This document shows, in pieces, positions 56,828 to 63,998 of a DNA stretch of 64,000 nucleotides. Source of the DNA: an uncultured Bacteroidia bacterium (lineage in GTDB: Bacteria > Bacteroidota > Bacteroidia > NS11-12g > UBA955); the NCBI GenBank assembly GCA_943788195.1, contig CALSPH010000001.1, positions 59,673 to 123,672 on the forward strand. The letters run 5' to 3'. The notes under the pieces are model-generated. The model was given only the letters and a program-made list of their open reading frames with translations, searched no databases and was not told the DNA's origin. The position numbers and the translations under genes are program-made. Each line of letters starts with the position of its first letter. Position 1 is the first letter of the stretch.

Positions 56828-59197
56828 ATGCTCATCATGGTATTAAAACAGCATATGAAGAAAGCTCTTAAAGATTTAAGTCTCGATCCAAGATACTATC
56901 AAATTGGTTTTCAAGGCATTTTCTTGGCGTTTGGAATAGCCATCTTAGGTTGGCAAACTGAATGGCAACGGGTGGGCGTTTACTTAGTGGTATGTCTAGT
57001 GACACAACTGCTCGTAAATATTTATACCAAGCAAAGCTTACACAGTTTAAAAAGTGCATTCATAACTGCTTTGGGCCTTGGACTACTTTTAAATACGTGT
57101 AACTTATGGATTGCAGCGCTTGCCGCTGTCATTGCTATAACTAGTAAATCACTGATACGGTTTAATGGTAAACACATCTTTAATCCTGGCAATTTGGGTA
57201 TCATGGCAGTGGTGCTACTCACCAATCAAGCATGGATTTCTCCAGGACAATGGGGCAGTCATTCACTTTTCCCGATTGGTATCATAGGAGCTGGTCTCAT
57301 TATCTTAAGCAAAGTAAAGCGGGTTGAAACGGGTTTTGTGTTCTATGGTGTTTTAATTGGGCTGGAGCTTATTCGTCAACATTTCTATCTGGGATGGCCG
57401 CTTGATTTTTGGTGGCATCGTGTGAGCAATGGCTCCATATTGGTTTATGCCCTATTTATGATTACTGATCCCAAAACTACACCTAGTCATCGAACTGCAC
57501 GTATGACATGGGCAGCTATTCTTGCCCTCTTTACTTTCATGCTTGGTTGCGGGATGCAATTATATGCTGCCCCCATTTATGCCTTATTATTTATTAGCCC
57601 ATTTACTCCGTTGTTTGATCGTATTTGGAAAGCCAAGAAATACAATTGGACGGTTGGAGACACGATTAACGCAGCAAAAGAAAAAATAAAAACAAAACAT
57701 ATTATGAGAAAAGAAATGATTAAACCTCTGCTATTGCTATTGGCAATGCTGGTTGTAGGCTCGCAAATGAGTGCCTTTTGCGGCTTCTATGTGGCCAAAG
57801 CCAGTGCGAGTATTTTTAACAAAAAAAGTCAAGTGATTTTAGTTCATGATGGGGATCGAACCACCATTACTATGCAAAACAATTTTAAAGGAAGCCTTAA
57901 AGAATTTGCCATGGTGATACCTGTACCGGTTGTACTCAAAAAAGATGATATCACTATTAAGGAGAATTCACTTTTTGCTAACCTTGACGCATATTCAGCA
58001 CCACGCTTAGTCGAATACCACGATCGCAACCCTTGCTATCAACCTGTATACCGGGGCAATCGGATAATGGCGGAAAATGCATCGGTTCAAATGCTCAAAG
58101 GAAAGAACCTCGATTATGTCAAGAAAGTGGAGCGTAAAGTGAAAATTGAAGCCAAGTACAGCATTGATGAATATGATATTATCATTCTCTCTGCTAAGGA
58201 AAGTTGGGCATTGGAAGCATGGCTTAGAATGAATGGATATAGTTTGCCTGAAAATGCAAAGGAAGTTTTAACTCCATATATCAAAGATAAAATGAAATTC
58301 TTCGCAGTAAAGATAAATCTAGAAAAAGCGAAGAACCTTCCCAAAGGAACATTGCGTCCTATTCAAATCAAATTTAAGAGTGATAAGTTTATGTTGCCTA
58401 TCCGGCTTGGAATGGCCAATGCCAATGGTGAAGACCAAGATTTAATCATCTATGCGTTTACACGCACTGGAAGAGTAGAAACTGCCAATTACCGAACGGT
58501 GGAAATGCCTACTGCGCGTAAAATTCCCACATTCATTAAGCAAGATTATGGCAACTTCTATAAAGAAATGTTTGATCGAAAATATCGAAATGAAGGAAGA
58601 AATGCAGTTTTTTTGGAATACGCATGGAATGTTTCACCCACATGGGGTGTCAAATGTGATCCATGTGTAGGTACGCCACCAGTTGTAAAAGATTTATCAG
58701 ATGCAGGTGTTCATTGGGTAGACCCCGATGCCAACTACAGTTTTGGCAGAACGGCAGTGAATGTATTTTTCACACGTATGCATGTAAGATACAGCCGCGA
58801 TCGTTTTCCTAGCGACCTAACCTTTATTGAAACCCCAAATAAAAAACATTATCAAGTAAGGCAAATCATCACTAATCCAGCCAGAGGAACATTTGATTGT
58901 GATCAAGGATTGGCTTACCTAAAGAAATTAAAAAACAGACGAATTGTGGAGCTGCATGAAATGGAGGCCCTTACGGGTCGAAATTCTGAGGAATACCCTT
59001 ACTATGTGGAATTGGGTTCTGGCAAAAAGAAACCCATTGCAAAACAGCAAAACAATCCGATTCAGGAAAATGTCCTACCTGTTGGCATTGGAAATAATGG
59101 GCAACCTCCATTTTGGCTACTCCCCTTTAGCATTATCAGCATCATATTGCTCATGCAATTGATTAAATGGGCTTCACGTAAACACTTAAAAATATGA
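56828..59197 (+). CDS. fusion protein: an N-terminal RnfD/NqrB-like polytopic membrane domain (~290 aa) joined in frame to a secreted Cys/His-rich module of unknown function (paralog A, starting at about 57704)
   Basis: GKHIFNPGNLGIMAVVLL and FMITDPKTTPSHRTARMTWAAILA parallel the RnfD FNPAMIGYVVLL and FFILTDPVT...R motifs. The module then begins with its own signal-like segment MRKEMIKPLLLLLAMLVVGSQMSAFCGFYVAKA and ends in a C-terminal TM anchor. Confidence 0.45.
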   Translation: MLIMVLKQHMKKALKDLSLDPRYYQIGFQGIFLAFGIAILGWQTEWQRVGVYLVVCLVTQLLVNIYTKQSLHSLKSAFITALGLGLLLNTCNLWIAALAAVIAITSKSLIRFNGKHIFNPGNLGIMAVVLLTNQAWISPGQWGSHSLFPIGIIGAGLIILSKVKRVETGFVFYGVLIGLELIRQHFYLGWPLDFWWHRVSNGSILVYALFMITDPKTTPSHRTARMTWAAILALFTFMLGCGMQLYAAPIYALLFISPFTPLFDRIWKAKKYNWTVGDTINAAKEKIKTKHIMRKEMIKPLLLLLAMLVVGSQMSAFCGFYVAKASASIFNKKSQVILVHDGDRTTITMQNNFKGSLKEFAMVIPVPVVLKKDDITIKENSLFANLDAYSAPRLVEYHDRNPCYQPVYRGNRIMAENASVQMLKGKNLDYVKKVERKVKIEAKYSIDEYDIIILSAKESWALEAWLRMNGYSLPENAKEVLTPYIKDKMKFFAVKINLEKAKNLPKGTLRPIQIKFKSDKFMLPIRLGMANANGEDQDLIIYAFTRTGRVETANYRTVEMPTARKIPTFIKQDYGNFYKEMFDRKYRNEGRNAVFLEYAWNVSPTWGVKCDPCVGTPPVVKDLSDAGVHWVDPDANYSFGRTAVNVFFTRMHVRYSRDRFPSDLTFIETPNKKHYQVRQIITNPARGTFDCDQGLAYLKKLKNRRIVELHEMEALTGRNSEEYPYYVELGSGKKKPIAKQQNNPIQENVLPVGIGNNGQPPFWLLPFSIISIILLMQLIKWASRKHLKI

Positions 59198-60693
59198 AAA
59201 ACAAGATCTATAAATTAACCTTAACATGTGTTGGCTTAGTCTATTTAGCCACCCAATCTTTTGCCTTTTGTGGCTTCTATGTCGCAAAAGCCGGGGCTAA
59301 CATTTTCAACAAGAAAAGCCAAGTAATCTTGGTTCATGATGGCGATCGAACAACCATCACCATGCAAAATGATTTTAAGGGCGACTTAAAAGAATTTGCC
59401 ATGGTTATTCCTGTACCCGTGGTGCTCAAAAGAGACGATATAACCATAAAAGAGAATTCCCTCTTCGATAATTTGGATGCGTATTCCTCACCACGGTTGG
59501 TGGAATACCATGATCGAAATCCATGTTATCGACCGCGGTATGATAATTATTCCAGATCAGTAGATAAGGTAATGCTTATGTCCAGCATGGAGGTTGAGGA
59601 TGATATCGCATTTGATGAAGTAAGAAAAAAAGTGAAAATTGAGGCAAAATATAGCATCGATGAATATGATATCATTATACTTTCTGCCAAAGAAAGTTGG
59701 GCTCTTGAGGCTTGGCTAAAGCAAAACGGATACAGTTTACCAGAAAACGCCAAGGAAGTTTTGACGCCTTACATCAAAGATAAAATGAAATTCTTTGCAG
59801 TTAAGATTAACTTAGAAAAAGCGAAGAATCTTGCAAAAGGGAAATTGCGTCCCATTCAGATCAAATTTAAAAGTGATAAGTTTATGTTGCCTATTCGCCT
59901 TGGAATGGCCAATGCTAATGGCGAAGACCAAGATTTAATTATCTATGCGTTTACACGTACCGGTAGAGTAGAAACGGCCAATTACAGAACGGTTGAAATG
60001 CCAACTGCTCGCAAAATTCCCACATTCATTAAGCAAGACTATGGCAATTTCTATAAAGAAATGTTCGATCGAAAATATCGAAACGAAGGTAGAAATGCGG
60101 TGTTCTTGGAATATGCTTGGAACGTTTCACCCACTTGGAATGGCATTAAATGTGACCCATGTGTAGGAACTCCCCCTGTTGTTACCGATTTATCCAATGC
60201 AGGAATTCATTGGGTAGACCCAAATGAGGATTATAGTTTTGGACGCACAAAAGTAGAAGTATTTTTTACCCGATTACACGTGCGTTATAGCAGGAGCCGG
60301 TTCCCCAGTGATTTAACCTTTATTGAGACCCCCAATAAAATGAATTATCAAGTAAGGCAAATCATCACCAACCCTGCAAGTGGAACCTTCGATTGTGATA
60401 AAGGGTTAGCTTATTTAAAGAAACTAAAAAATAGACGCATTGTAGAGCTACATGAAATGGAGGCTCTAACTGGAAGAAATTCTGAAGAATACCCTTACTA
60501 TGTAGAATTGGGTTCTGGCAAGAAGAAACCCATTGTTAGGCAGCAAAATAATTCTAATAATAAGCAAGAAAATGCAATTCCCATCAGTACAATAGGGAAT
60601 CAAAAGCCGCCTCCCTTTTGGATACTACCTCTTTGTGTTTTGGGATTAATACTTGTATTACAGATTCCCAAATGGATTACCTCCAAGAGTTAA
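59194..60693 (+). CDS. paralog B of the secreted, membrane-anchored Cys/His-rich module (unknown function)
   Basis: About 80-85% aa identity to residues ~297-789 of the upstream ORF. Shared motifs are AFCGFYVAKAxANIFNKKSQVILVHDGDRTTITMQN, YHDRNPCY and CDPCVGTPPVV. It has an N-terminal signal and a C-terminal TM, and its ATGA overlaps the upstream stop. Confidence 0.45.
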   Translation: MKNKIYKLTLTCVGLVYLATQSFAFCGFYVAKAGANIFNKKSQVILVHDGDRTTITMQNDFKGDLKEFAMVIPVPVVLKRDDITIKENSLFDNLDAYSSPRLVEYHDRNPCYRPRYDNYSRSVDKVMLMSSMEVEDDIAFDEVRKKVKIEAKYSIDEYDIIILSAKESWALEAWLKQNGYSLPENAKEVLTPYIKDKMKFFAVKINLEKAKNLAKGKLRPIQIKFKSDKFMLPIRLGMANANGEDQDLIIYAFTRTGRVETANYRTVEMPTARKIPTFIKQDYGNFYKEMFDRKYRNEGRNAVFLEYAWNVSPTWNGIKCDPCVGTPPVVTDLSNAGIHWVDPNEDYSFGRTKVEVFFTRLHVRYSRSRFPSDLTFIETPNKMNYQVRQIITNPASGTFDCDKGLAYLKKLKNRRIVELHEMEALTGRNSEEYPYYVELGSGKKKPIVRQQNNSNNKQENAIPISTIGNQKPPPFWILPLCVLGLILVLQIPKWITSKS

Positions 60694-60731
60694 TCAAGTT
60701 ATACAATCCATAAGCTAAGAAGCATTTAATT

Positions 60732-60768
60732 AAAAAACTCCACCCAAATTAATCAGGTGGAGTTTTTT
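60732..60768 (+). terminator. rho-independent terminator (AAAAAACTCCACC-N11-GGTGGAGTTTTTT)
   Basis: A 7-bp GC stem extended by an A/T run, followed by T6, after the tandem paralog pair. Confidence 0.6.
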
Positions 60769-60814
60769 AATGCGAAGGATTTGCAACAGTATGATCGTCT
60801 AAGAAATAAACACT

Positions 60815-61642
60815 ATGAAAACCTACATAAAAGCCGCCTTGCTCAGTTCGCTTATCTTTTTTGTTGCAATCAGTTCATGTAAAAAAGAAGTTGAATCAAA
60901 TGAAGACACAACGAAAAACACAACTGAATTACATGGCGCATTCGATGCTTTCGATTCAGATAACTTCACCATTTATAAGCAGGGCACTGAGTATGTCCTA
61001 GAAACCAAGGGTTTACCAAATCATACTTCTCCATATTGGTCCAATACAACTGCACGATCTTCAACTGGCCCGATGGGAGGTACATTAACAACTCCTGCAG
61101 CGACTCAAAACCATTCTTTGTTTGTAGAACCAACCACCACTTCACACAGTAATATGGCACCTGGCAACATTGACGATTTTAATGGGTCATATACCCTTAG
61201 GGTACCAGTTAGTCCCAGTAAAGCGAGTAGCACAAGTTCCACAGGTCTTGGGGCAATAGGTTTTGCAATAAGCGGATCAGTAATTTACAATGATGAGGAA
61301 GGGCCCAATGTGCCTTTAGACAATGCAATAGGTTCATTGGATTACACCGGAGCACATACGGGTCCACAAAGTTATCATTACCACCTTGAACCAAAAGCAT
61401 GGTCCAATGATGATGAGAAATTAATCGGAATTATATCAGATGGATTCTTCTTATACGGCAGAAAATGCAATTCAACGGGCACCTACCCAACTGACTTAGA
61501 CGCTTCAGGAGGGCACACTTCAACCACACAACATGTAGGTTCAAGCGAATATCATTATCATATACAAAACGACCTATATTTGAACAAATATTACATCCTT
61601 TTTCCAGGAGATTATCAAGGAGCGCCCAATTCAATACAATAG
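60815..61642 (+). CDS. YHYH-motif lipoprotein
   Basis: Lipobox ISSCKKE and two YHYH motifs (SYHYHLEP, EYHYHIQND) of the YHYH-protein family. Confidence 0.5.
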   Translation: MKTYIKAALLSSLIFFVAISSCKKEVESNEDTTKNTTELHGAFDAFDSDNFTIYKQGTEYVLETKGLPNHTSPYWSNTTARSSTGPMGGTLTTPAATQNHSLFVEPTTTSHSNMAPGNIDDFNGSYTLRVPVSPSKASSTSSTGLGAIGFAISGSVIYNDEEGPNVPLDNAIGSLDYTGAHTGPQSYHYHLEPKAWSNDDEKLIGIISDGFFLYGRKCNSTGTYPTDLDASGGHTSTTQHVGSSEYHYHIQNDLYLNKYYILFPGDYQGAPNSIQ

Positions 61643-61650
61643 AGCAGATT

Positions 61651-61932
61651 ATGAAAAACACAACTATTTATATTTTGGGATTAAGCTTAGCCCTAATTTC
61701 ATGTTCGGGCAACGCTCAAAACCCCAAAACAGATCCTCCCAAAAGACCAAGTGTAGAACAGATATTTAAGGACTTAGATACAAACAAGGACGGTAAAATT
61801 TCCAAAACAGAAGCGAAAGGACCATTAAAAGATGATTTCGCCAAAATCGATTTGAATAAGGATGGATATATTACTAAAGCAGAGTTGAAAAAAGCACCTA
61901 AACCGAAAGGACCTAAACCTCCTCATAAATAA
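61651..61932 (+). CDS. secreted EF-hand calcium-binding protein
   Basis: A signal and lipobox (LISCSG) plus two canonical EF-hand loops (DTNKDGKISKTE, DLNKDGYITKAE). Confidence 0.65.
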   Translation: MKNTTIYILGLSLALISCSGNAQNPKTDPPKRPSVEQIFKDLDTNKDGKISKTEAKGPLKDDFAKIDLNKDGYITKAELKKAPKPKGPKPPHK

Positions 61933-62519
61933 TGCGGAGAATACTGTTACTACTTCTGCTATTTTTGTTTGTGGTTGCTAGTTGCAACAACGCTGGCAGC
62001 ACATTGGATATCTCAAGTCAAAATGTAATTCATGATGATTCACTTGTTCTAAATACATCCAATGGAACATTTACTTACCGTGGGGGGTTGTATACAGGCC
62101 AATCGATTTCGCACAATTCCTCGGGTTCCATTTCTCGAACTATCGATTATAAATTCGGTAAAAAGAATGGGTGTTTAACGATGTTTTATCCCAATGGGGC
62201 AATTTCATATCAGGCCAATTATCTCAATGGAAAACTAGATGGGGCTATAGCAAGTTGGTGGAAAAATGGAAATAAACGGTCTGAAAGCTTTTATAGGGAA
62301 GGAAAAGTACACGGTGTTCAAAAGCAATGGTATTCGAGTGGTGAACTATTTAAAGTACTCCGATTTAATGAAGGCATAGAGAATGGATTGCAAACGGCCT
62401 GGAGAAAAAATGGTACGATTTACACCAATTATGAGGCAAAAAACGGCCGCATTTTTGGATTAAAAAAAGCAACACTTTGTTATACCTTAGAAGATGAAGA
62501 AATTCAATTTAGTAATTAG
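61932..62519 (+). CDS. lipoprotein with MORN/YwqK-like repeats
   Basis: Lipobox VVASCNN and a repeated YxNGxxxxxxxYxxGKxxG pattern. Confidence 0.45.
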   Translation: MRRILLLLLLFLFVVASCNNAGSTLDISSQNVIHDDSLVLNTSNGTFTYRGGLYTGQSISHNSSGSISRTIDYKFGKKNGCLTMFYPNGAISYQANYLNGKLDGAIASWWKNGNKRSESFYREGKVHGVQKQWYSSGELFKVLRFNEGIENGLQTAWRKNGTIYTNYEAKNGRIFGLKKATLCYTLEDEEIQFSN

Positions 62520-63156
62520 TATTTGCAGCCTGCTTTTTGCGCATTGCACAACAGACCAACCAAGCAGCAGAGTGGAACAACTCCCCTACTACAAAGATGC
62601 AAGTTTCACACCACATTGGATCAGTGATTTGCCTGATAGTGTTGCCACATTTCATAAAATACCTTCATTTCAACTCGTCAACCAACATGGCCAGAATATA
62701 TCGAATGAAGTAGTTTCAGGGAAAATTTATGTGGCAGACTTTTTCTTCACTACTTGTCCGGGCATTTGCCCAAAAATGACACTCAATATGAAAATATTAC
62801 AAGAAGAGTTCAGACAAGACTCCACTATTTTACTCCTTTCTCATTCCGTTACACCAGAAATTGACTCAGTAGCCCAATTAGCCAAGTACGCAAAAAAGCA
62901 TGGCATCAATTCGCCGAATTGGCATTTACTTACAGGAAATAGAAAAGAAATATACAATTTGGGCAGAAATACTTATTTCATCGAAGAAGACTTAGGTGTG
63001 GAAAAGACAGATGAAGATTTTCTTCATACCGAAAATTTTGTCCTTATCGATCAGCAAGGGCACATTAGAGGCATTTTTAACGGTCTTAACAAGACATCTA
63101 TCGCCCAGCTTATTGCAGATATTTACACCTTAAAAAAGGGCAATTCAGCACAATAA
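62494..63156 (+). CDS. SCO1/SenC-family thioredoxin-like copper chaperone
   Basis: CPGICP motif (FFFTTCPGICPKM) and a downstream conserved His (LSHSVTPEIDS). Confidence 0.75.
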   Translation: MKKFNLVISICSLLFAHCTTDQPSSRVEQLPYYKDASFTPHWISDLPDSVATFHKIPSFQLVNQHGQNISNEVVSGKIYVADFFFTTCPGICPKMTLNMKILQEEFRQDSTILLLSHSVTPEIDSVAQLAKYAKKHGINSPNWHLLTGNRKEIYNLGRNTYFIEEDLGVEKTDEDFLHTENFVLIDQQGHIRGIFNGLNKTSIAQLIADIYTLKKGNSAQ

Positions 63157-63193
63157 AGAAGAAAAAGATACCTTTGACCAAGCATTATAAAAT

Positions 63194-63724
63194 TTGCAAA
63201 AGAAAGAGGAATTTATAACGATCTATGAGAGCCATAAGGATTTAGTCTATAATGTTTGTCTCAACTATTTACAAAATAAAGAAGAGGCTGAGGAGGTCTT
63301 TCAAGATGTTTTTCTGAAAGTACATGCCAAGCTGAATGATTTCAACCAACAATCTTCTTATAAAACATGGATATATCGAATCTGTATTAATAAGTGTATT
63401 GATTACTTACGTGCTAAGAATAGGAAAAAACGTTTCGCATTCTTACAAAGCTTGAGTAATAGCAAATTGGAAATCCACTCTAACTTCAGTCATCCTGGCG
63501 TTTTGATGGAAGACAAAGAATCTATGCGCATTTTGTTTGGCCACATTAACAGTTTACCCGAAAAGCAAAAAACTGCCATAGTTTTAAAGAGTATAGAAGG
63601 ATTAAGTCAAAAAGAAATTGCTCAAATACTGACTACTACAGAAAAAGCCGTTGAATCCCTTTTATCACGGGCAAGGAAAAAACTAAAAGAAAAAATTGAA
63701 TCATCGAAGGATGATAAAGAATAA
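63194..63724 (+). CDS. ECF-subfamily RNA polymerase sigma-70 factor
   Basis: Region 2 (VFQDVFLKVHAKL...YKTWIYRICINKCIDYLR) and region 4 (LSQKEIAQILTTTEKAVESLLSRARKKL). Confidence 0.8.
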   Translation: MQKKEEFITIYESHKDLVYNVCLNYLQNKEEAEEVFQDVFLKVHAKLNDFNQQSSYKTWIYRICINKCIDYLRAKNRKKRFAFLQSLSNSKLEIHSNFSHPGVLMEDKESMRILFGHINSLPEKQKTAIVLKSIEGLSQKEIAQILTTTEKAVESLLSRARKKLKEKIESSKDDKE

Positions 63725-63998
63725 AACGTCTAAGACTATGAACAACGACACATTGGAACCATTAAACAAAATAAAGCGAATCCCTGCACCAGGTTATTTA
63801 TTAACTCGAATCGAAGGAGCATTAGAAGAAGTGCAATTGTTGATCCCTAAACGATTGATTTTTGTATATGCAGCCATCTTTTTTGTTTTCCTTTCTTTAC
63901 AAATTGGTGTGTTTTCTAATTCTCAGAATAACACAGATATTGAATCGTACGCAAATTCATTAGGTATAAATTCTAGTATTACCCTTTATCATGATTAA
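63696..63998 (+). CDS. possible anti-sigma factor (single TM), partial at the window end
   Basis: It overlaps the sigma-factor 3' end and has one hydrophobic helix (LIFVYAAIFFVFLSLQIGVF). The ORF continues beyond the window. Confidence 0.3.
   Translation: MNHRRMIKNKTSKTMNNDTLEPLNKIKRIPAPGYLLTRIEGALEEVQLLIPKRLIFVYAAIFFVFLSLQIGVFSNSQNNTDIESYANSLGINSSITLYHD

What the first reader, a model, noticed from the sequence alone, without database searches (positions are those of the whole stretch)
56828..60693. RnfD/NqrB-like membrane domain fused to a duplicated, secreted Cys/His-rich module: a candidate uncharacterised extracytoplasmic (possibly redox) system
The first ~290 aa of ORF 56828-59197 align motif-for-motif with the Rnf/Nqr D/B subunit TM core (FNPxxxGxxxLL and FxxTDPxT...R). 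It lacks the periplasmic loop that carries the flavinylated Thr. With no stop codon, it continues into a ~500-aa module that starts with its own signal-like helix (AFCGFYVAKA) and ends with a C-terminal TM anchor. The invariant Cys/His motifs are HDGDRTTITMQN, YHDRNPCY, CDPCVGTPP and FDCDxGLAY. A second copy of the module follows with an ATGA overlap, about 80-85% identical in protein and visibly similar in DNA. A good terminator closes the unit. Stand-alone RnfD-like domains without the rest of Rnf or Nqr are unusual, and a fusion to a tandemly duplicated secreted domain is more so. The whole unit is flanked by leuS and unrelated lipoproteins, so it looks like a self-contained two-gene system.
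Basis: partly seen in the sequence, partly recalled or inferred. Interest (0 to 1): 0.8.

Follow-up and report, generated by a model that had tools for sequence, protein, structure and literature searches.

The report
RnfD-like membrane protein with p35-fold partners
A flavin-less relative of the RnfD/NqrB respiratory membrane subunit is fused here, and is adjacent in most related Bacteroidota, to one or more secreted, membrane-tethered DUF2330 proteins. Their predicted fold unexpectedly resembles the baculovirus caspase trap p35. The pair is a widespread, uncharacterised two-part envelope system whose function is still unknown.

Summary
ORF1 (56828-59197, 789 aa) is one uninterrupted frame, identical in at least four independent assemblies. 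ORF2 (59194-60693, 499 aa) overlaps it by ATGA, and a strong hairpin terminator follows.

ORF1 has an RnfD/NqrB-fold domain (Pfam PF03116; Foldseek hits to RnfD) with no flavinylation motif. Next come a basic linker, an internal type-I signal peptide and a DUF2330 module ending in a C-terminal membrane anchor. ORF2 is a second DUF2330, 80% identical overall and 93% in the core.

What is new:
- The RnfD-like/DUF2330 pair is conserved across Bacteroidota. It is more often two adjacent genes (about 52 loci) than a fusion (about 19), with 1-5 DUF2330 copies.
- The one universally conserved Cys is the second residue after the predicted signal-peptidase cut.
- A 29-36-residue disordered loop keeps its length but not its sequence. 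In one clade it copies the SusC TonB box.

No redox partner, flavin site or conserved neighbour exists. My best guess, at low confidence, is a periplasmic bait-loop trap or decoy docked on a non-redox RnfD-like channel. The function is untested.

The parts
56828..59197 (+). ORF1: the RnfD-like domain, internal signal peptide, DUF2330 copy A and C-terminal anchor in one frame (789 aa). Gene callers start it at 56855 (780 aa).
56828..57643 (+). RnfD/NqrB-fold polytopic membrane domain (aa 1-272). It carries the family motifs KHIFNPGNLG and FMITDPKTTPSHRTAR. It lacks the flavinylated-Thr loop, which is replaced by the conserved AWxSPGQWGS.
   Evidence: Pfam PF03116. RnfD 8ahx_D. Foldseek hits to RnfD/NqrB. 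0/62 orthologues have a flavinylation motif. NCBIfam scores are far below the cut-offs.
57617..57700 (+). Basic cytoplasmic linker (aa 264-291, 8 Lys/Arg).
   Evidence: pLDDT below 50
57701..57775 (+). Internal type-I signal peptide (aa 292-316, MRKEMIKPLLLLLAMLVVGSQMSA). The predicted signal-peptidase I cut is after Ala316. Met292 and Met296 could also serve as internal start codons.
   Evidence: In 62 fusions the -1 residue is A/S/G/T in 62/62 and the -3 residue is small or aliphatic. 47/62 have a Met in the n-region.
57776..57793 (+). Invariant mature N-terminus FCGFYV of copy A. Cys318 is the only Cys conserved across the whole DUF2330 family.
57776..59038 (+). DUF2330 copy A, the periplasmic domain with a p35-like fold (aa 317-737).
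   Evidence: Pfam PF10092 E 2.6e-72. AF2 model. Foldseek hits to p35 entries 1i3s/1i4e/1i3p.
58037..58138 (+). Variable, low-confidence 34-residue loop of copy A (aa 404-437), lying between the invariant NPC and VKIEA motifs.
58655..58666 (+). CDPC motif of copy A (aa 610-613).
59111..59164 (+). C-terminal membrane anchor of copy A (aa 762-779), followed by a basic tail.
59194..60693 (+). ORF2: stand-alone DUF2330 copy B (499 aa) with its own signal peptide (aa 1-24, predicted cut SFA|FCGFYV) and C-terminal anchor. It overlaps ORF1 by ATGA.
59527..59631 (+). Variable loop of copy B (aa 112-146). It is the most divergent stretch between the two copies (dN 0.95, against 0.06 or less in most core windows and up to 0.2 at the edges).
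60151..60162 (+). CDPC motif of copy B (aa 320-323).
60616..60669 (+). C-terminal membrane anchor of copy B (aa 475-492).
60729..60771 (+). Intrinsic terminator: a 16-bp stem (60729-60744 paired with 60756-60771), an 11-nt loop and a U tract.

Best explanation
**Shown.** The locus encodes a self-contained inner-membrane module with two kinds of subunit.
- The first is a polytopic RnfD/NqrB-fold protein. It has lost the covalent-FMN loop and has no Rnf or Nqr partner subunits.
- The second is one or more DUF2330 proteins. Each is exported by a type-I signal peptide and folds into a ~400-aa beta-rich periplasmic domain. A short disordered linker and a C-terminal helix hold it to the membrane.
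- In this genome the first DUF2330 is fused behind the RnfD-like domain through an internal signal peptide, and an old duplicate follows.

**Inferred from sequence.** Signal peptidase I, or internal initiation at Met292/296, separates the two parts. The mature DUF2330 then starts at F-C-G-F-Y-V, as it does in the many genomes where the genes are separate.

**Inferred mechanism, low confidence.** DUF2330 acts as a periplasmic bait or pseudosubstrate scaffold, in the manner of baculovirus p35. A rigid beta core presents a flexible ~33-residue loop to a partner that binds extended peptide segments, such as a protease. In one clade the loop imitates a SusC TonB box, so there the partner may be TonB. 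Engagement or cleavage of the loop would free the invariant N-terminal strand and its Cys, which would trap the partner or switch the state of the complex. The RnfD-like subunit would not carry electrons. It would serve as the docking platform, and possibly as an ion or solute channel whose state is coupled to the periplasmic subunits. Extra DUF2330 copies with different loops would widen the range of partners.
For: **Anatomy and conservation**
- The frame is uninterrupted and is found in at least 4 assemblies.
- An RnfD-like coding region lies directly upstream of DUF2330 in 77/80 Bacteroidota loci. About 19 are fused, about 52 are split and about 10 are unclear.
- One to five tandem DUF2330 genes follow a single RnfD-like gene.
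- No other neighbour is conserved.

**Processing**
- All 62 fusions carry a canonical signal peptide immediately before FCGFYV.
- The charge distribution fits a cytoplasm, membrane, periplasm, membrane, cytoplasm path.

**Fold**
- The AF2 models are confident (pLDDT 81-82, pTM 0.76-0.80).
- Foldseek against viral models puts a granulovirus P35 first (probability 0.95).
- Foldseek with the separately modelled ORF1 finds p35 entries (probability 0.98-1.0). They are the only clear hits other than RnfD/NqrB; one urea transporter, which matches the RnfD-like half, follows more weakly.

**p35-like features**
- The only universally conserved Cys sits one or two residues from the predicted mature N-terminus: AxA|FCG in Bacteroidota and Myxococcota, AxA|CACG in Actinobacteria.
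- p35 uses an N-terminal Cys2 together with a cleaved reactive-site loop (PMC7863939, PMC3375223).
- The DUF2330 loop has low model confidence. Its length is held at 29-36 aa in 71/87 diverse members while its sequence is unrelated between them.
- Between the two copies here the loop evolves about 15 times faster than the core.
- In the Chitinophagales clade the loop matches the SusC/RagA TonB-box segment.

**Non-redox RnfD-like domain**
- There is no flavinylation motif, no invariant Cys in the membrane domain and no cytoplasmic domain.
Against: - The p35 link is fold-level only. TM-scores are 0.31-0.39, and profile comparison finds no sequence signal (probability below 1%).
- I could not inspect residue-level superpositions. 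It is therefore unproven that the DUF2330 Cys corresponds to p35 Cys2, or that the variable loop corresponds to the reactive-site loop.
- The conserved Cys is the second or third residue, not the first. A p35-type S-to-N acyl shift could not occur as it does in p35.
- No protease gene is consistently nearby.
- The constant loop length could be purely geometric, a connection between distant anchor points.
- Nothing explains why a trap would need an RnfD-like partner. DUF2330 works without one in the Actinobacteria, Deinococcus and Myxococcota loci examined.
- Signal-peptidase cleavage of the fusion is predicted, not shown.
Confidence: 0.3

Rival explanations
1. Extracytoplasmic redox relay. The RnfD-like domain binds a non-covalent flavin or quinone and moves electrons between the quinone pool and the cysteines of DUF2330 (FCG, CDPC). 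It would work as a DsbB-, VKOR- or DsbD-like system, or as a trimmed Nqr/Rnf-like complex.
For: - The RnfD/NqrB fold and its core motifs are retained.
- Five invariant Cys, including a CxxC, occur in the Bacteroidota-type module.
- There is a published precedent. Two-subunit Nqr/Rnf-like complexes have an NqrB/RnfD-like subunit that also lacks the flavinylated Thr, and it docks a membrane-anchored extracytoplasmic partner (PMC11334425).
- The high pTM (0.80) of the fusion model suggests that the two parts dock.
Against: - Neither part has a flavinylation motif.
- There is no NAD-binding or other cytoplasmic donor domain.
- No Cys is conserved in the membrane domain.
- No ApbE, cytochrome or Rnf/Nqr gene co-occurs.
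- CDPC is also present in DUF2330 proteins with no RnfD-like neighbour, as in Labilithrix.
- Actinobacterial members have no Cys beyond the N-terminal CAC.
- The DUF2330 fold resembles no known redox domain.
Confidence: 0.15
2. TonB-linked or otherwise force- or ligand-gated channel. The RnfD-like protein is an ion or small-solute channel, since the fold is shared with urea and ammonium channels. DUF2330 is its periplasmic regulatory lid. The loop is a docking peptide for TonB or another periplasmic protein, and no proteolysis or covalent chemistry is involved.
For: - Urea transporters and an Rh/Amt-family protein are the next structural neighbours of the membrane domain.
- The loop of the Chitinophagales clade is a near copy of the SusC TonB box. 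The top PDB hit is SusC aa 108-126, and the only NCBIfam hit is TIGR04056 at positions 75-98.
- Gene pairing and fusion are strict in Bacteroidota.
- In a myxobacterium DUF2330 is fused to a different polytopic membrane domain.
Against: - The TonB-box mimicry is confined to one clade. The window's own loops do not show it.
- No TonB or ExbBD genes are nearby.
- This model does not explain the universally conserved N-terminal Cys.
- Channel activity is pure inference.
Confidence: 0.15
3. A non-catalytic envelope scaffold or binding protein, for example one that binds peptidoglycan or glycan. The p35 resemblance would be a shared beta-sandwich architecture with no mechanistic meaning, and the loop would be only a connector.
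For: - The universally conserved residues are rich in Trp, Tyr, Arg, Asp, Gln and Asn, as in binding sites.
- TM-scores to p35 are modest.
Against: - p35 stands clearly above all other folds with two programs, two models and both experimental and predicted targets.
- An invariant six-residue mature N-terminus containing the only universal Cys is not expected for a passive scaffold.
- Loop length is strictly conserved and, in one clade, so is the loop motif.
Confidence: 0.2
4. The fusion is an assembly or frameshift artefact, and the genome really has two separate genes.
For: - In most related genomes the genes are separate. In 10 loci they are in the same frame with a single stop codon between them.
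- Some assemblies of this species carry broken fragments of the protein.
Against: - The identical 780-aa product is called on at least 4 independent contigs of up to 1.8 Mb.
- Fusion proteins of 760-830 aa are found in thousands of records across several orders.
Confidence: 0.02

Closest known systems
RnfD / NqrB subunits of the Rnf and Na+-NQR complexes (Pfam PF03116; PDB 8ahx_D, 7zc6_D, 7xk3_B)
   Same: The polytopic fold is the same (Foldseek E 6e-8, TM 0.57-0.65 normalised to RnfD). The core motifs FNPxxxG and F-x-x-TDP-x-T...R are shared. The C-terminus is cytoplasmic and basic.
   Different: - The loop with the flavinylated Thr is deleted.
- Scores are far below the RnfD and NqrB family cut-offs (28 against 207 bits, 25 against 414 bits).
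- None of the other five subunits is encoded nearby.
- It is paired with DUF2330 rather than RnfG/NqrC.
Two-subunit 'Nqr/Rnf-like' flavinylation-associated complexes (Huang et al. 2024, PMC11334425)
   Same: An NqrB/RnfD-like membrane subunit that lacks the flavinylation site works with a single membrane-anchored extracytoplasmic partner that is predicted to dock on it.
   Different: In those complexes the membrane subunit carries a cytosolic NAD-binding domain (PF00175) and the partner is a flavinylated NqrC/RnfG homologue. Here there is no NAD-binding domain and no FMN-binding domain or motif. The partner is DUF2330, often in several copies.
Baculovirus P35 caspase inhibitor (MEROPS I50; PDB 1p35, 1i4e, 1i3s, 2fun)
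   Same: - Domain sizes are similar: about 290 aa in the minimal actinobacterial DUF2330 against 299 aa in p35.
- Both have a functionally conspicuous Cys at the very N-terminus of the mature chain, inside the first beta strand.
- Both have an exposed flexible loop about 85-120 residues into the chain.
   Different: - There is no detectable sequence similarity.
- DUF2330 is bacterial, secreted and membrane-tethered, whereas p35 is a cytosolic viral protein.
- The Cys is residue 2 or 3, not residue 1.
- The loop is longer and is predicted to be disordered.
- Bacteroidota members have extra helices and four more Cys.
- No target protease is known and inhibition is untested.
Bacterial alpha-2-macroglobulins (inner-membrane-anchored periplasmic protease traps)
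   Same: The concept is the same: a periplasmic, membrane-tethered protein with a variable bait region and a reactive cysteine, thought to guard the envelope.
   Different: The fold is unrelated, DUF2330 has no CxEQ thioester motif, and its gene partner is different. This is a functional analogy, not homology.
SusC/RagA TonB-dependent transporters (TIGR04056), TonB-box segment
   Same: In Chitinophagales DUF2330 proteins the loop reads LxGKxPGLxLNEVVVTGYGxxRKKDLG. This is 15/19 identical to aa 108-126 of the SusC homologue 8aa4_A.
   Different: Only a ~25-residue peptide is shared. It sits in a periplasmic inner-membrane protein, not an outer-membrane barrel. The two proteins in this window do not have it.

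Membership tests
RnfD / NqrB (bona fide Rnf or Na+-NQR subunit) | Scores above the curated family cut-offs (TIGR01946 rnfD, NF003756 NqrB) | tested here: not met
   The scores are 28.5 bits against a cut-off of 207 and 25.4 bits against 414. Only the broad Pfam PF03116 threshold is passed (54.2 against 27.7).
RnfD / NqrB (bona fide Rnf or Na+-NQR subunit) | Periplasmic loop with the Thr that ApbE flavinylates ([ST]-G-[AS]-[ST] motif) | tested here: not met
   0/62 orthologues have the motif in the membrane domain. The region between the aligned blocks is 65 aa, against 132 aa in RnfD 8ahx_D.
RnfD / NqrB (bona fide Rnf or Na+-NQR subunit) | Encoded together with the other Rnf (A, B, C, E, G) or Nqr (A, C, D, E, F) subunits | tested here: not met
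   There are no such genes in the window locus or in distant relatives. No recurrent neighbour family was found in 83 loci, and the window holds no second PF03116 gene.
RnfD / NqrB (bona fide Rnf or Na+-NQR subunit) | RnfD/NqrB transmembrane fold | tested here: met
   Foldseek gives RnfD chains at E 6e-8 to 5e-6 (TM 0.57-0.65) and NqrB at TM 0.34-0.47.
Nqr/Rnf-like two-subunit complexes (PMC11334425) | NqrB/RnfD-like membrane domain lacking the flavinylation site | tested here: met
Nqr/Rnf-like two-subunit complexes (PMC11334425) | [quoted passage not shown] | tested here: not met
   Pfam finds only PF03116 and PF10092. The split RnfD-like ORFs are about 290-346 aa.
Nqr/Rnf-like two-subunit complexes (PMC11334425) | Extracytoplasmic partner homologous to NqrC/RnfG, with a flavinylation motif | tested here: not met
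   The partner is DUF2330. No FMN_bind hit was found, and no D/N-x-x-[ST]-G-[AS]-[ST] motif occurs in 66 proteins.
Pfam DUF2330 (PF10092) | Match to the family HMM above the gathering score | tested here: met
   E 2.6e-72 for ORF1 aa 315-666 and E 1.3e-73 for ORF2 aa 23-376.
Baculovirus P35 family (MEROPS I50) | P35 fold | tested here: met
   [not shown]
Baculovirus P35 family (MEROPS I50) | Detectable sequence homology to P35/P49 | tested here: not met
   hhalign probability is 0.1-0.3%. Pfam gives no Baculo_p35 hit.
Baculovirus P35 family (MEROPS I50) | N-terminal Cys in the first strand that is repositioned after loop cleavage | tested here: inconclusive
   An invariant Cys is present at mature position 2 (3 in Actinobacteria). 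Its structural equivalence to p35 Cys2 and any repositioning could not be examined, because no model coordinates were available.
Baculovirus P35 family (MEROPS I50) | Reactive-site loop cleaved by the target protease, leaving a covalent complex | not testable with these tools
   A low-confidence, hypervariable loop of fixed length exists. Cleavage and trapping need biochemistry.
Alpha-2-macroglobulin / thioester proteins | CxEQ (Cys-Gln) internal thioester motif | tested here: not met
   The sequence after the conserved Cys is C-G-F-Y in this window's proteins and most Bacteroidota-type members, and C-G-G/A in Actinobacteria, with no Gln at +3. Whether Cys26 lies near the universally conserved Gln246 in the fold could not be checked.

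The most novel reading that the evidence does not exclude
DUF2330 would be the first cellular counterpart of the baculovirus p35 fold. It would be a large bacterial family of membrane-tethered periplasmic suicide-substrate traps or decoys. Their hypervariable loops would bait proteases, or TonB, and their invariant N-terminal Cys would capture the partner covalently. In Bacteroidota, firing of the trap would be coupled to a flavin-less RnfD-derived ion or solute channel. That would make the pair a new kind of envelope surveillance or defence module built from a repurposed respiratory subunit.
Probability: 0.15. Interest if true: 0.9.

Novelty: categorically new. Interest (0 to 1): 0.7.

Why it matters
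- P35 has been regarded as a structural orphan of insect viruses. This is from my own knowledge, and searches for 'p35-like fold' and similar phrases found no paper. A bacterial family of at least 4,682 clusters at 50% identity with the same fold and an analogous N-terminal Cys would give p35 a cellular context. It would also suggest a new class of bacterial envelope protease traps or decoys.
- The locus shows that the RnfD/NqrB fold has been reused outside respiration. It has lost its flavin and all partner subunits, and it is strictly coupled to a non-redox periplasmic protein.
- Automatic annotation labels these genes 'RnfD subunit' or 'NqrB'. That would mislead metabolic reconstructions of Bacteroidota genomes assembled from metagenomes.
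- The SusC TonB-box copy inside the loop of one clade gives a concrete, testable handle on what the loop binds.

Tried and rejected
- **Literature.** Neither 'DUF2330' nor 'PF10092' appears in any paper of the library. No paper mentions a p35-like fold in bacteria.
- **Sequence link to p35.** hhalign of the Bacteroidota and actinobacterial DUF2330 profiles against p35 gave nothing.
- **Defence and phage libraries.** PADLOC and PHROGs gave no hits. No relative was found in IMG/VR viral contigs.
- **Conserved neighbours.** I clustered all flanking ORFs of 83 loci. Only lineage-local synteny appeared: an ECF sigma factor in 15 loci, a Spy/Metal_resist-like protein in 11 and HtrA in 7. There was no protease, TonB/ExbBD, ApbE, cytochrome or Rnf/Nqr gene. 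I therefore judged the downstream YHYH, EF-hand, MORN, SCO1 and ECF sigma genes of the window to be unrelated to the cassette.
- **Informative domain fusions in long DUF2330 proteins.** Pfam found only one with ankyrin repeats and otherwise nothing.
- **C-terminal sorting signal (exosortase- or sortase-like).** No motif is conserved before the anchor helix, so I rejected it.
- **Lipoprotein processing.** The residue before the Cys is an invariant Phe (Ala in Actinobacteria), and the -3/-1 pattern fits signal peptidase I, so I rejected it.
- **Ntn-hydrolase-like autoprocessing at the loop.** There is no nucleophile at the end of the loop, so I rejected it.
- **Recent duplication.** dS is saturated, so I rejected it.

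Full report
**1. What is in the sequence**

ORF1 (56828-59197, + strand, 789 aa) and ORF2 (59194-60693, + strand, 499 aa) are present with an ATGA overlap, and there is no stop codon near 57700. Gene callers begin ORF1 at Met10, giving 780 aa. That exact protein is found on at least four independent contigs of up to 1.8 Mb, so the read-through is genuine. The organism is an uncultured Bacteroidia bacterium. leuS lies upstream on the opposite strand. The unit ends in a strong hairpin terminator at 60729-60771 (dG -20.4 kcal/mol, z -8.4). The consensus scan missed it because the loop is 11 nt.

**2. The membrane domain**

- Residues 1-272 pass the Pfam threshold for NQR2_RnfD_RnfE (E 1.8e-14).
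- They align with A. vinelandii RnfD (8ahx_D, E 1e-7).
- In the AF2 model of the whole ORF (pLDDT 81.3, pTM 0.80) they superpose best on RnfD (TM 0.57-0.65), then on NqrB. One urea transporter follows the p35 hits, and further urea transporters and an Rh-family protein come lower.
- The domain is not a true RnfD or NqrB. The NCBIfam scores are 28 bits against a cut-off of 207, and 25 bits against 414.
- None of 62 orthologues has a flavinylation motif.
- The stretch that holds the flavinylated Thr in RnfD is about 67 residues shorter. No Cys is invariant.
- No Rnf, Nqr or ApbE gene is nearby, here or in relatives.

**3. The junction**

- After a basic linker (aa 264-291, 8 Lys/Arg) comes MRKEMIKPLLLLLAMLVVGSQMSA, followed by FCGFYV.
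- In all 62 aligned fusions this stretch is a canonical type-I signal peptide. The -1 residue is A in 53, S in 5, G in 3 and T in 1. The -3 residue is small or aliphatic. The uncharged h-region has a median length of 13. A Met lies in the n-region in 47/62.
- ORF2 has the equivalent ...TQSFA|FCGFYV.
- I infer that the fusion is cut by signal peptidase I, or that DUF2330 is also made from an internal start. Either way the periplasmic product is the same as in genomes where the genes are separate.
- The charge distribution fits this path: cytoplasmic linker, membrane, 438-aa periplasmic part, C-terminal helix, basic tail.

**4. Fusion against gene pair**

- A scan of one genome per species returned 80 loci, all from Bacteroidota: Flavobacteriales including Crocinitomicaceae, Chitinophagales, Sphingobacteriales, Cytophagales and Saprospirales.
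- An RnfD-like coding region lies directly upstream of DUF2330 in 77/80.
- Stop-to-stop ORF analysis shows about 19 fused, about 52 split and about 10 unclear. Ten of the split loci are in the same frame with a single stop codon between the genes.
- Tandem extra DUF2330 genes recur independently: 2 copies in L019, L041, L058, L070 and L073, 4 in L078, and 5 in L024 by tblastn (4 by ORF analysis). Each has its own signal peptide and anchor.
- The relatives of ORF1 at 68% and 45% identity stand alone, with no shared neighbours. Clustering all flanking ORFs found no recurrent partner family.
- The conserved unit is therefore one RnfD-like gene with one to five DUF2330 genes. The window shows the fused variant with one extra copy.

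**5. The duplicate**

- The two modules are 80% identical, and 93% once the loop is excluded.
- Synonymous sites are saturated (dS about 3) while dN is 0.14. Most core windows have dN of 0.06 or less, with up to 0.2 at the edges. The loop window has dN 0.95.
- The copy is therefore old. Its core is under strong purifying selection and its loop is free to change.
- A central stretch (aa 211-300) has lower dS (0.6-0.8), which may reflect gene conversion.

**6. The DUF2330 family**

- Both modules match Pfam DUF2330 (E about 1e-72). No paper in the library mentions it.
- phmmer against 1.84 billion cluster representatives finds 4,682 clusters at E up to 1e-3 and 591 at E up to 1e-30. Most are stand-alone proteins of 430-600 aa.
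- Actinobacterial members (Nocardia, Mycobacterium; about 345 aa) have a signal peptide ending AxA|CACGG and a C-terminal helix with an Arg tail. 111 of 120 have no other Cys, and none of the three loci examined has an RnfD-like neighbour.
- A Deinococcus plasmid carries a broken copy on its own.
- A myxobacterial member (Labilithrix) has AxA|FCGFYV and CDPC. It is fused at its C-terminus to a different polytopic membrane region, and no RnfD-like gene was found nearby.
- Residues conserved across the Bacteroidota and actinobacterial branches, in ORF2 numbering: C26, G27, G50, M57, A69, P73, P75, F91, P100, W174, L175, N178, Y180, P192, Y193, F200, P220, P233, R235, A239, Q246, Y251, R258, T359 and D373.
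- C111, C320/C323 (CDPC), C401 and H362 are conserved only in the FCGFYV-type members.

**7. Fold**

- The AF2 model of ORF2 is confident (pLDDT 81.5, pTM 0.76). The exceptions are the signal-peptide junction, residues 116-145 and the linker before the anchor.
- Foldseek against predicted viral structures also puts a P35 first (probability 0.95).
- Foldseek with the independently modelled ORF1 lists p35 entries 1i3s, 1i4e and 1i3p (probability 0.98-1.0). They are the only clear hits other than RnfD/NqrB; one urea transporter, which matches the RnfD-like half, follows more weakly.
- TM-scores are modest (0.31-0.39), and profile comparison finds no sequence signal. The relation is at fold level only.

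**8. Why p35 may be mechanistically relevant (inference)**

- P35 is a suicide substrate. A caspase cleaves its reactive-site loop at Asp87 and stays bound as a thioester. The N-terminus then moves into the active site, where the Cys2 thiol protects or exchanges the thioester. The initiator Met is removed, so Cys2 is the N-terminal residue. P35 also inhibits the bacterial protease gingipain-K (PMC7863939; PMC3375223).
- DUF2330 shares a conspicuous feature. Its only universal Cys lies one or two residues from the predicted mature N-terminus, inside an invariant first strand.
- DUF2330 also has an exposed loop that the models leave at low confidence. In 62 orthologues the loop is 31-36 aa, has unrelated sequence, and is enriched in Met, Ser, Glu, Ala and Lys. 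In 87 diverse cluster representatives it is 29-36 aa in 71.
- I could not obtain residue-level superpositions, so the equivalence of the Cys and of the loop with their p35 counterparts is unproven.

**9. TonB-box mimicry in a related clade**

- In the Chitinophagales clade the loop is conserved as LxGKxPGLxLNEVVVTGYGxxRKKDLG.
- Searching one such 39-aa segment against all PDB sequences gives a SusC homologue as the top hit. The match is at its TonB-box segment (8aa4_A aa 108-126, 15/19 identical, E 0.094), and another SusC homologue is third.
- Against 18,950 NCBIfam models, three of the four such loops tested hit TIGR04056 SusC/RagA at profile positions 75-98 (E 8e-4, 1.7e-3 and 0.33). It was the sole hit for two of them and the best hit for the third, which also gave a weaker hit to a FimV C-terminal model.
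- The window's two loops do not hit it.
- So at least in that clade the loop is a functional peptide that imitates a segment recognised in extended conformation.

**10. Interpretation**

- The descriptive model is well supported. It is a self-contained inner-membrane module made of a flavin-less RnfD-fold subunit and one or more signal-peptidase-released, tail-anchored periplasmic subunits with a p35-like fold.
- The mechanism is not established. I favour a bait-loop trap or decoy docked on a non-redox RnfD-like platform or channel, at about 0.3.
- The rivals are a redox relay (about 0.15), a TonB- or ligand-gated channel without covalent chemistry (about 0.15), and a passive binding scaffold (about 0.2).
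- The redox idea is weakened by several points: no flavin site, no donor domain, no Cys in the membrane domain, CDPC in a lineage without an RnfD-like partner, and actinobacterial members that keep only the N-terminal Cys.
- The closest published precedent for the architecture is the two-subunit Nqr/Rnf-like complex (PMC11334425). Its defining NAD-binding domain and flavinylated NqrC/RnfG-like partner are both absent here.

**11. Novelty**

- The components are catalogued only as a DUF and as a generic 'RnfD/NqrB' label.
- The pairing, the p35-like fold, the N-terminal Cys signature, the fixed-length hypervariable loop and the TonB-box mimicry appear to be undescribed in the searchable literature.
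- The cassette fails the membership tests for Rnf/Nqr, for Nqr/Rnf-like complexes and, at sequence level, for the P35 family.
- I therefore rate it as a new kind of system whose function remains to be shown.

Noticed in passing
Related loci L068:~6391, L071:~6382, L085:~6388; proteins P0043, P0048, P0064, P0085, P0101, P0107, P0109, P0113: In the Chitinophagales clade the DUF2330 variable loop is a near copy of the SusC/RagA TonB-box segment (LNEVVVTGYGxxRKKDLG). It is preceded by an LxGKxPG motif that also resembles a conserved TonB-dependent-receptor plug motif. The window's own loops lack this.
   Followed up: partly
window 60815-63998: Downstream on the same strand lie a YHYH-domain lipoprotein, an EF-hand protein, a MORN-repeat lipoprotein, an SCO1/SenC homologue, an ECF sigma factor and a probable anti-sigma factor. 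This could be a copper- or envelope-related cluster. It is not conserved next to the cassette in relatives.
   Followed up: partly
window 59824-60093 compared with 58334-58603 (ORF2 aa 211-300 and the matching part of ORF1): The central part of the two DUF2330 copies has much lower synonymous divergence (dS 0.6-0.8) than the rest, which is saturated. This suggests partial gene conversion between the paralogues.
   Followed up: no
L014, L019, L020, L028, L030, L037, L054, L070, L073, L085: In ten genomes the RnfD-like and DUF2330 genes are in the same reading frame, separated by a single stop codon. Loss of one stop would create the fusion seen in the window. I did not examine whether read-through occurs.
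   Followed up: no
L092:8001-11099 (Labilithrix sp., Myxococcota): A DUF2330 with the same AxA|FCGFYV start and CDPC motif is fused at its C-terminus to a different multi-pass membrane region and a cytoplasmic domain, neither of which has a Pfam match. DUF2330 thus appears to be linked to polytopic membrane modules in more than one way.
   Followed up: partly
Proteins P0010 (1342 aa), P0012 and P0013 (963-980 aa), P0269 (987 aa): Some Bacteroidota proteins contain two or more DUF2330 modules in one polypeptide and no RnfD-like domain.
   Followed up: no
p35 residues 263-280 compared with ORF2 residues 23-47: The only local sequence resemblance hhalign found between DUF2330 and p35 is between the C-terminal hairpin of p35 (KIFCNGFIYDKKSKVLYV) and the N-terminal hairpin of DUF2330 (AFCGFYV...IFNKKSQVILV). 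It is not significant (E 0.13-0.4). It would be interesting only if the two folds were circular permutants.
   Followed up: no
Cluster members P0246 and P0251, P0252 and P0253: In some assemblies of the same species the fusion protein is split into fragments on a single contig. These are probably frameshift errors in those assemblies.
   Followed up: no
L029:7591-8082, L080:7583-7978, L085:8884-9378, L086:8616-8954 and similar loci: In 11-15 mostly Chitinophagales loci a convergent set of genes lies just downstream of the cassette: an ECF sigma factor, a small membrane protein and a Spy/Metal_resist-like periplasmic protein. This is probably lineage synteny. The window also has an ECF sigma factor about 2.5 kb downstream.
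   Followed up: partly
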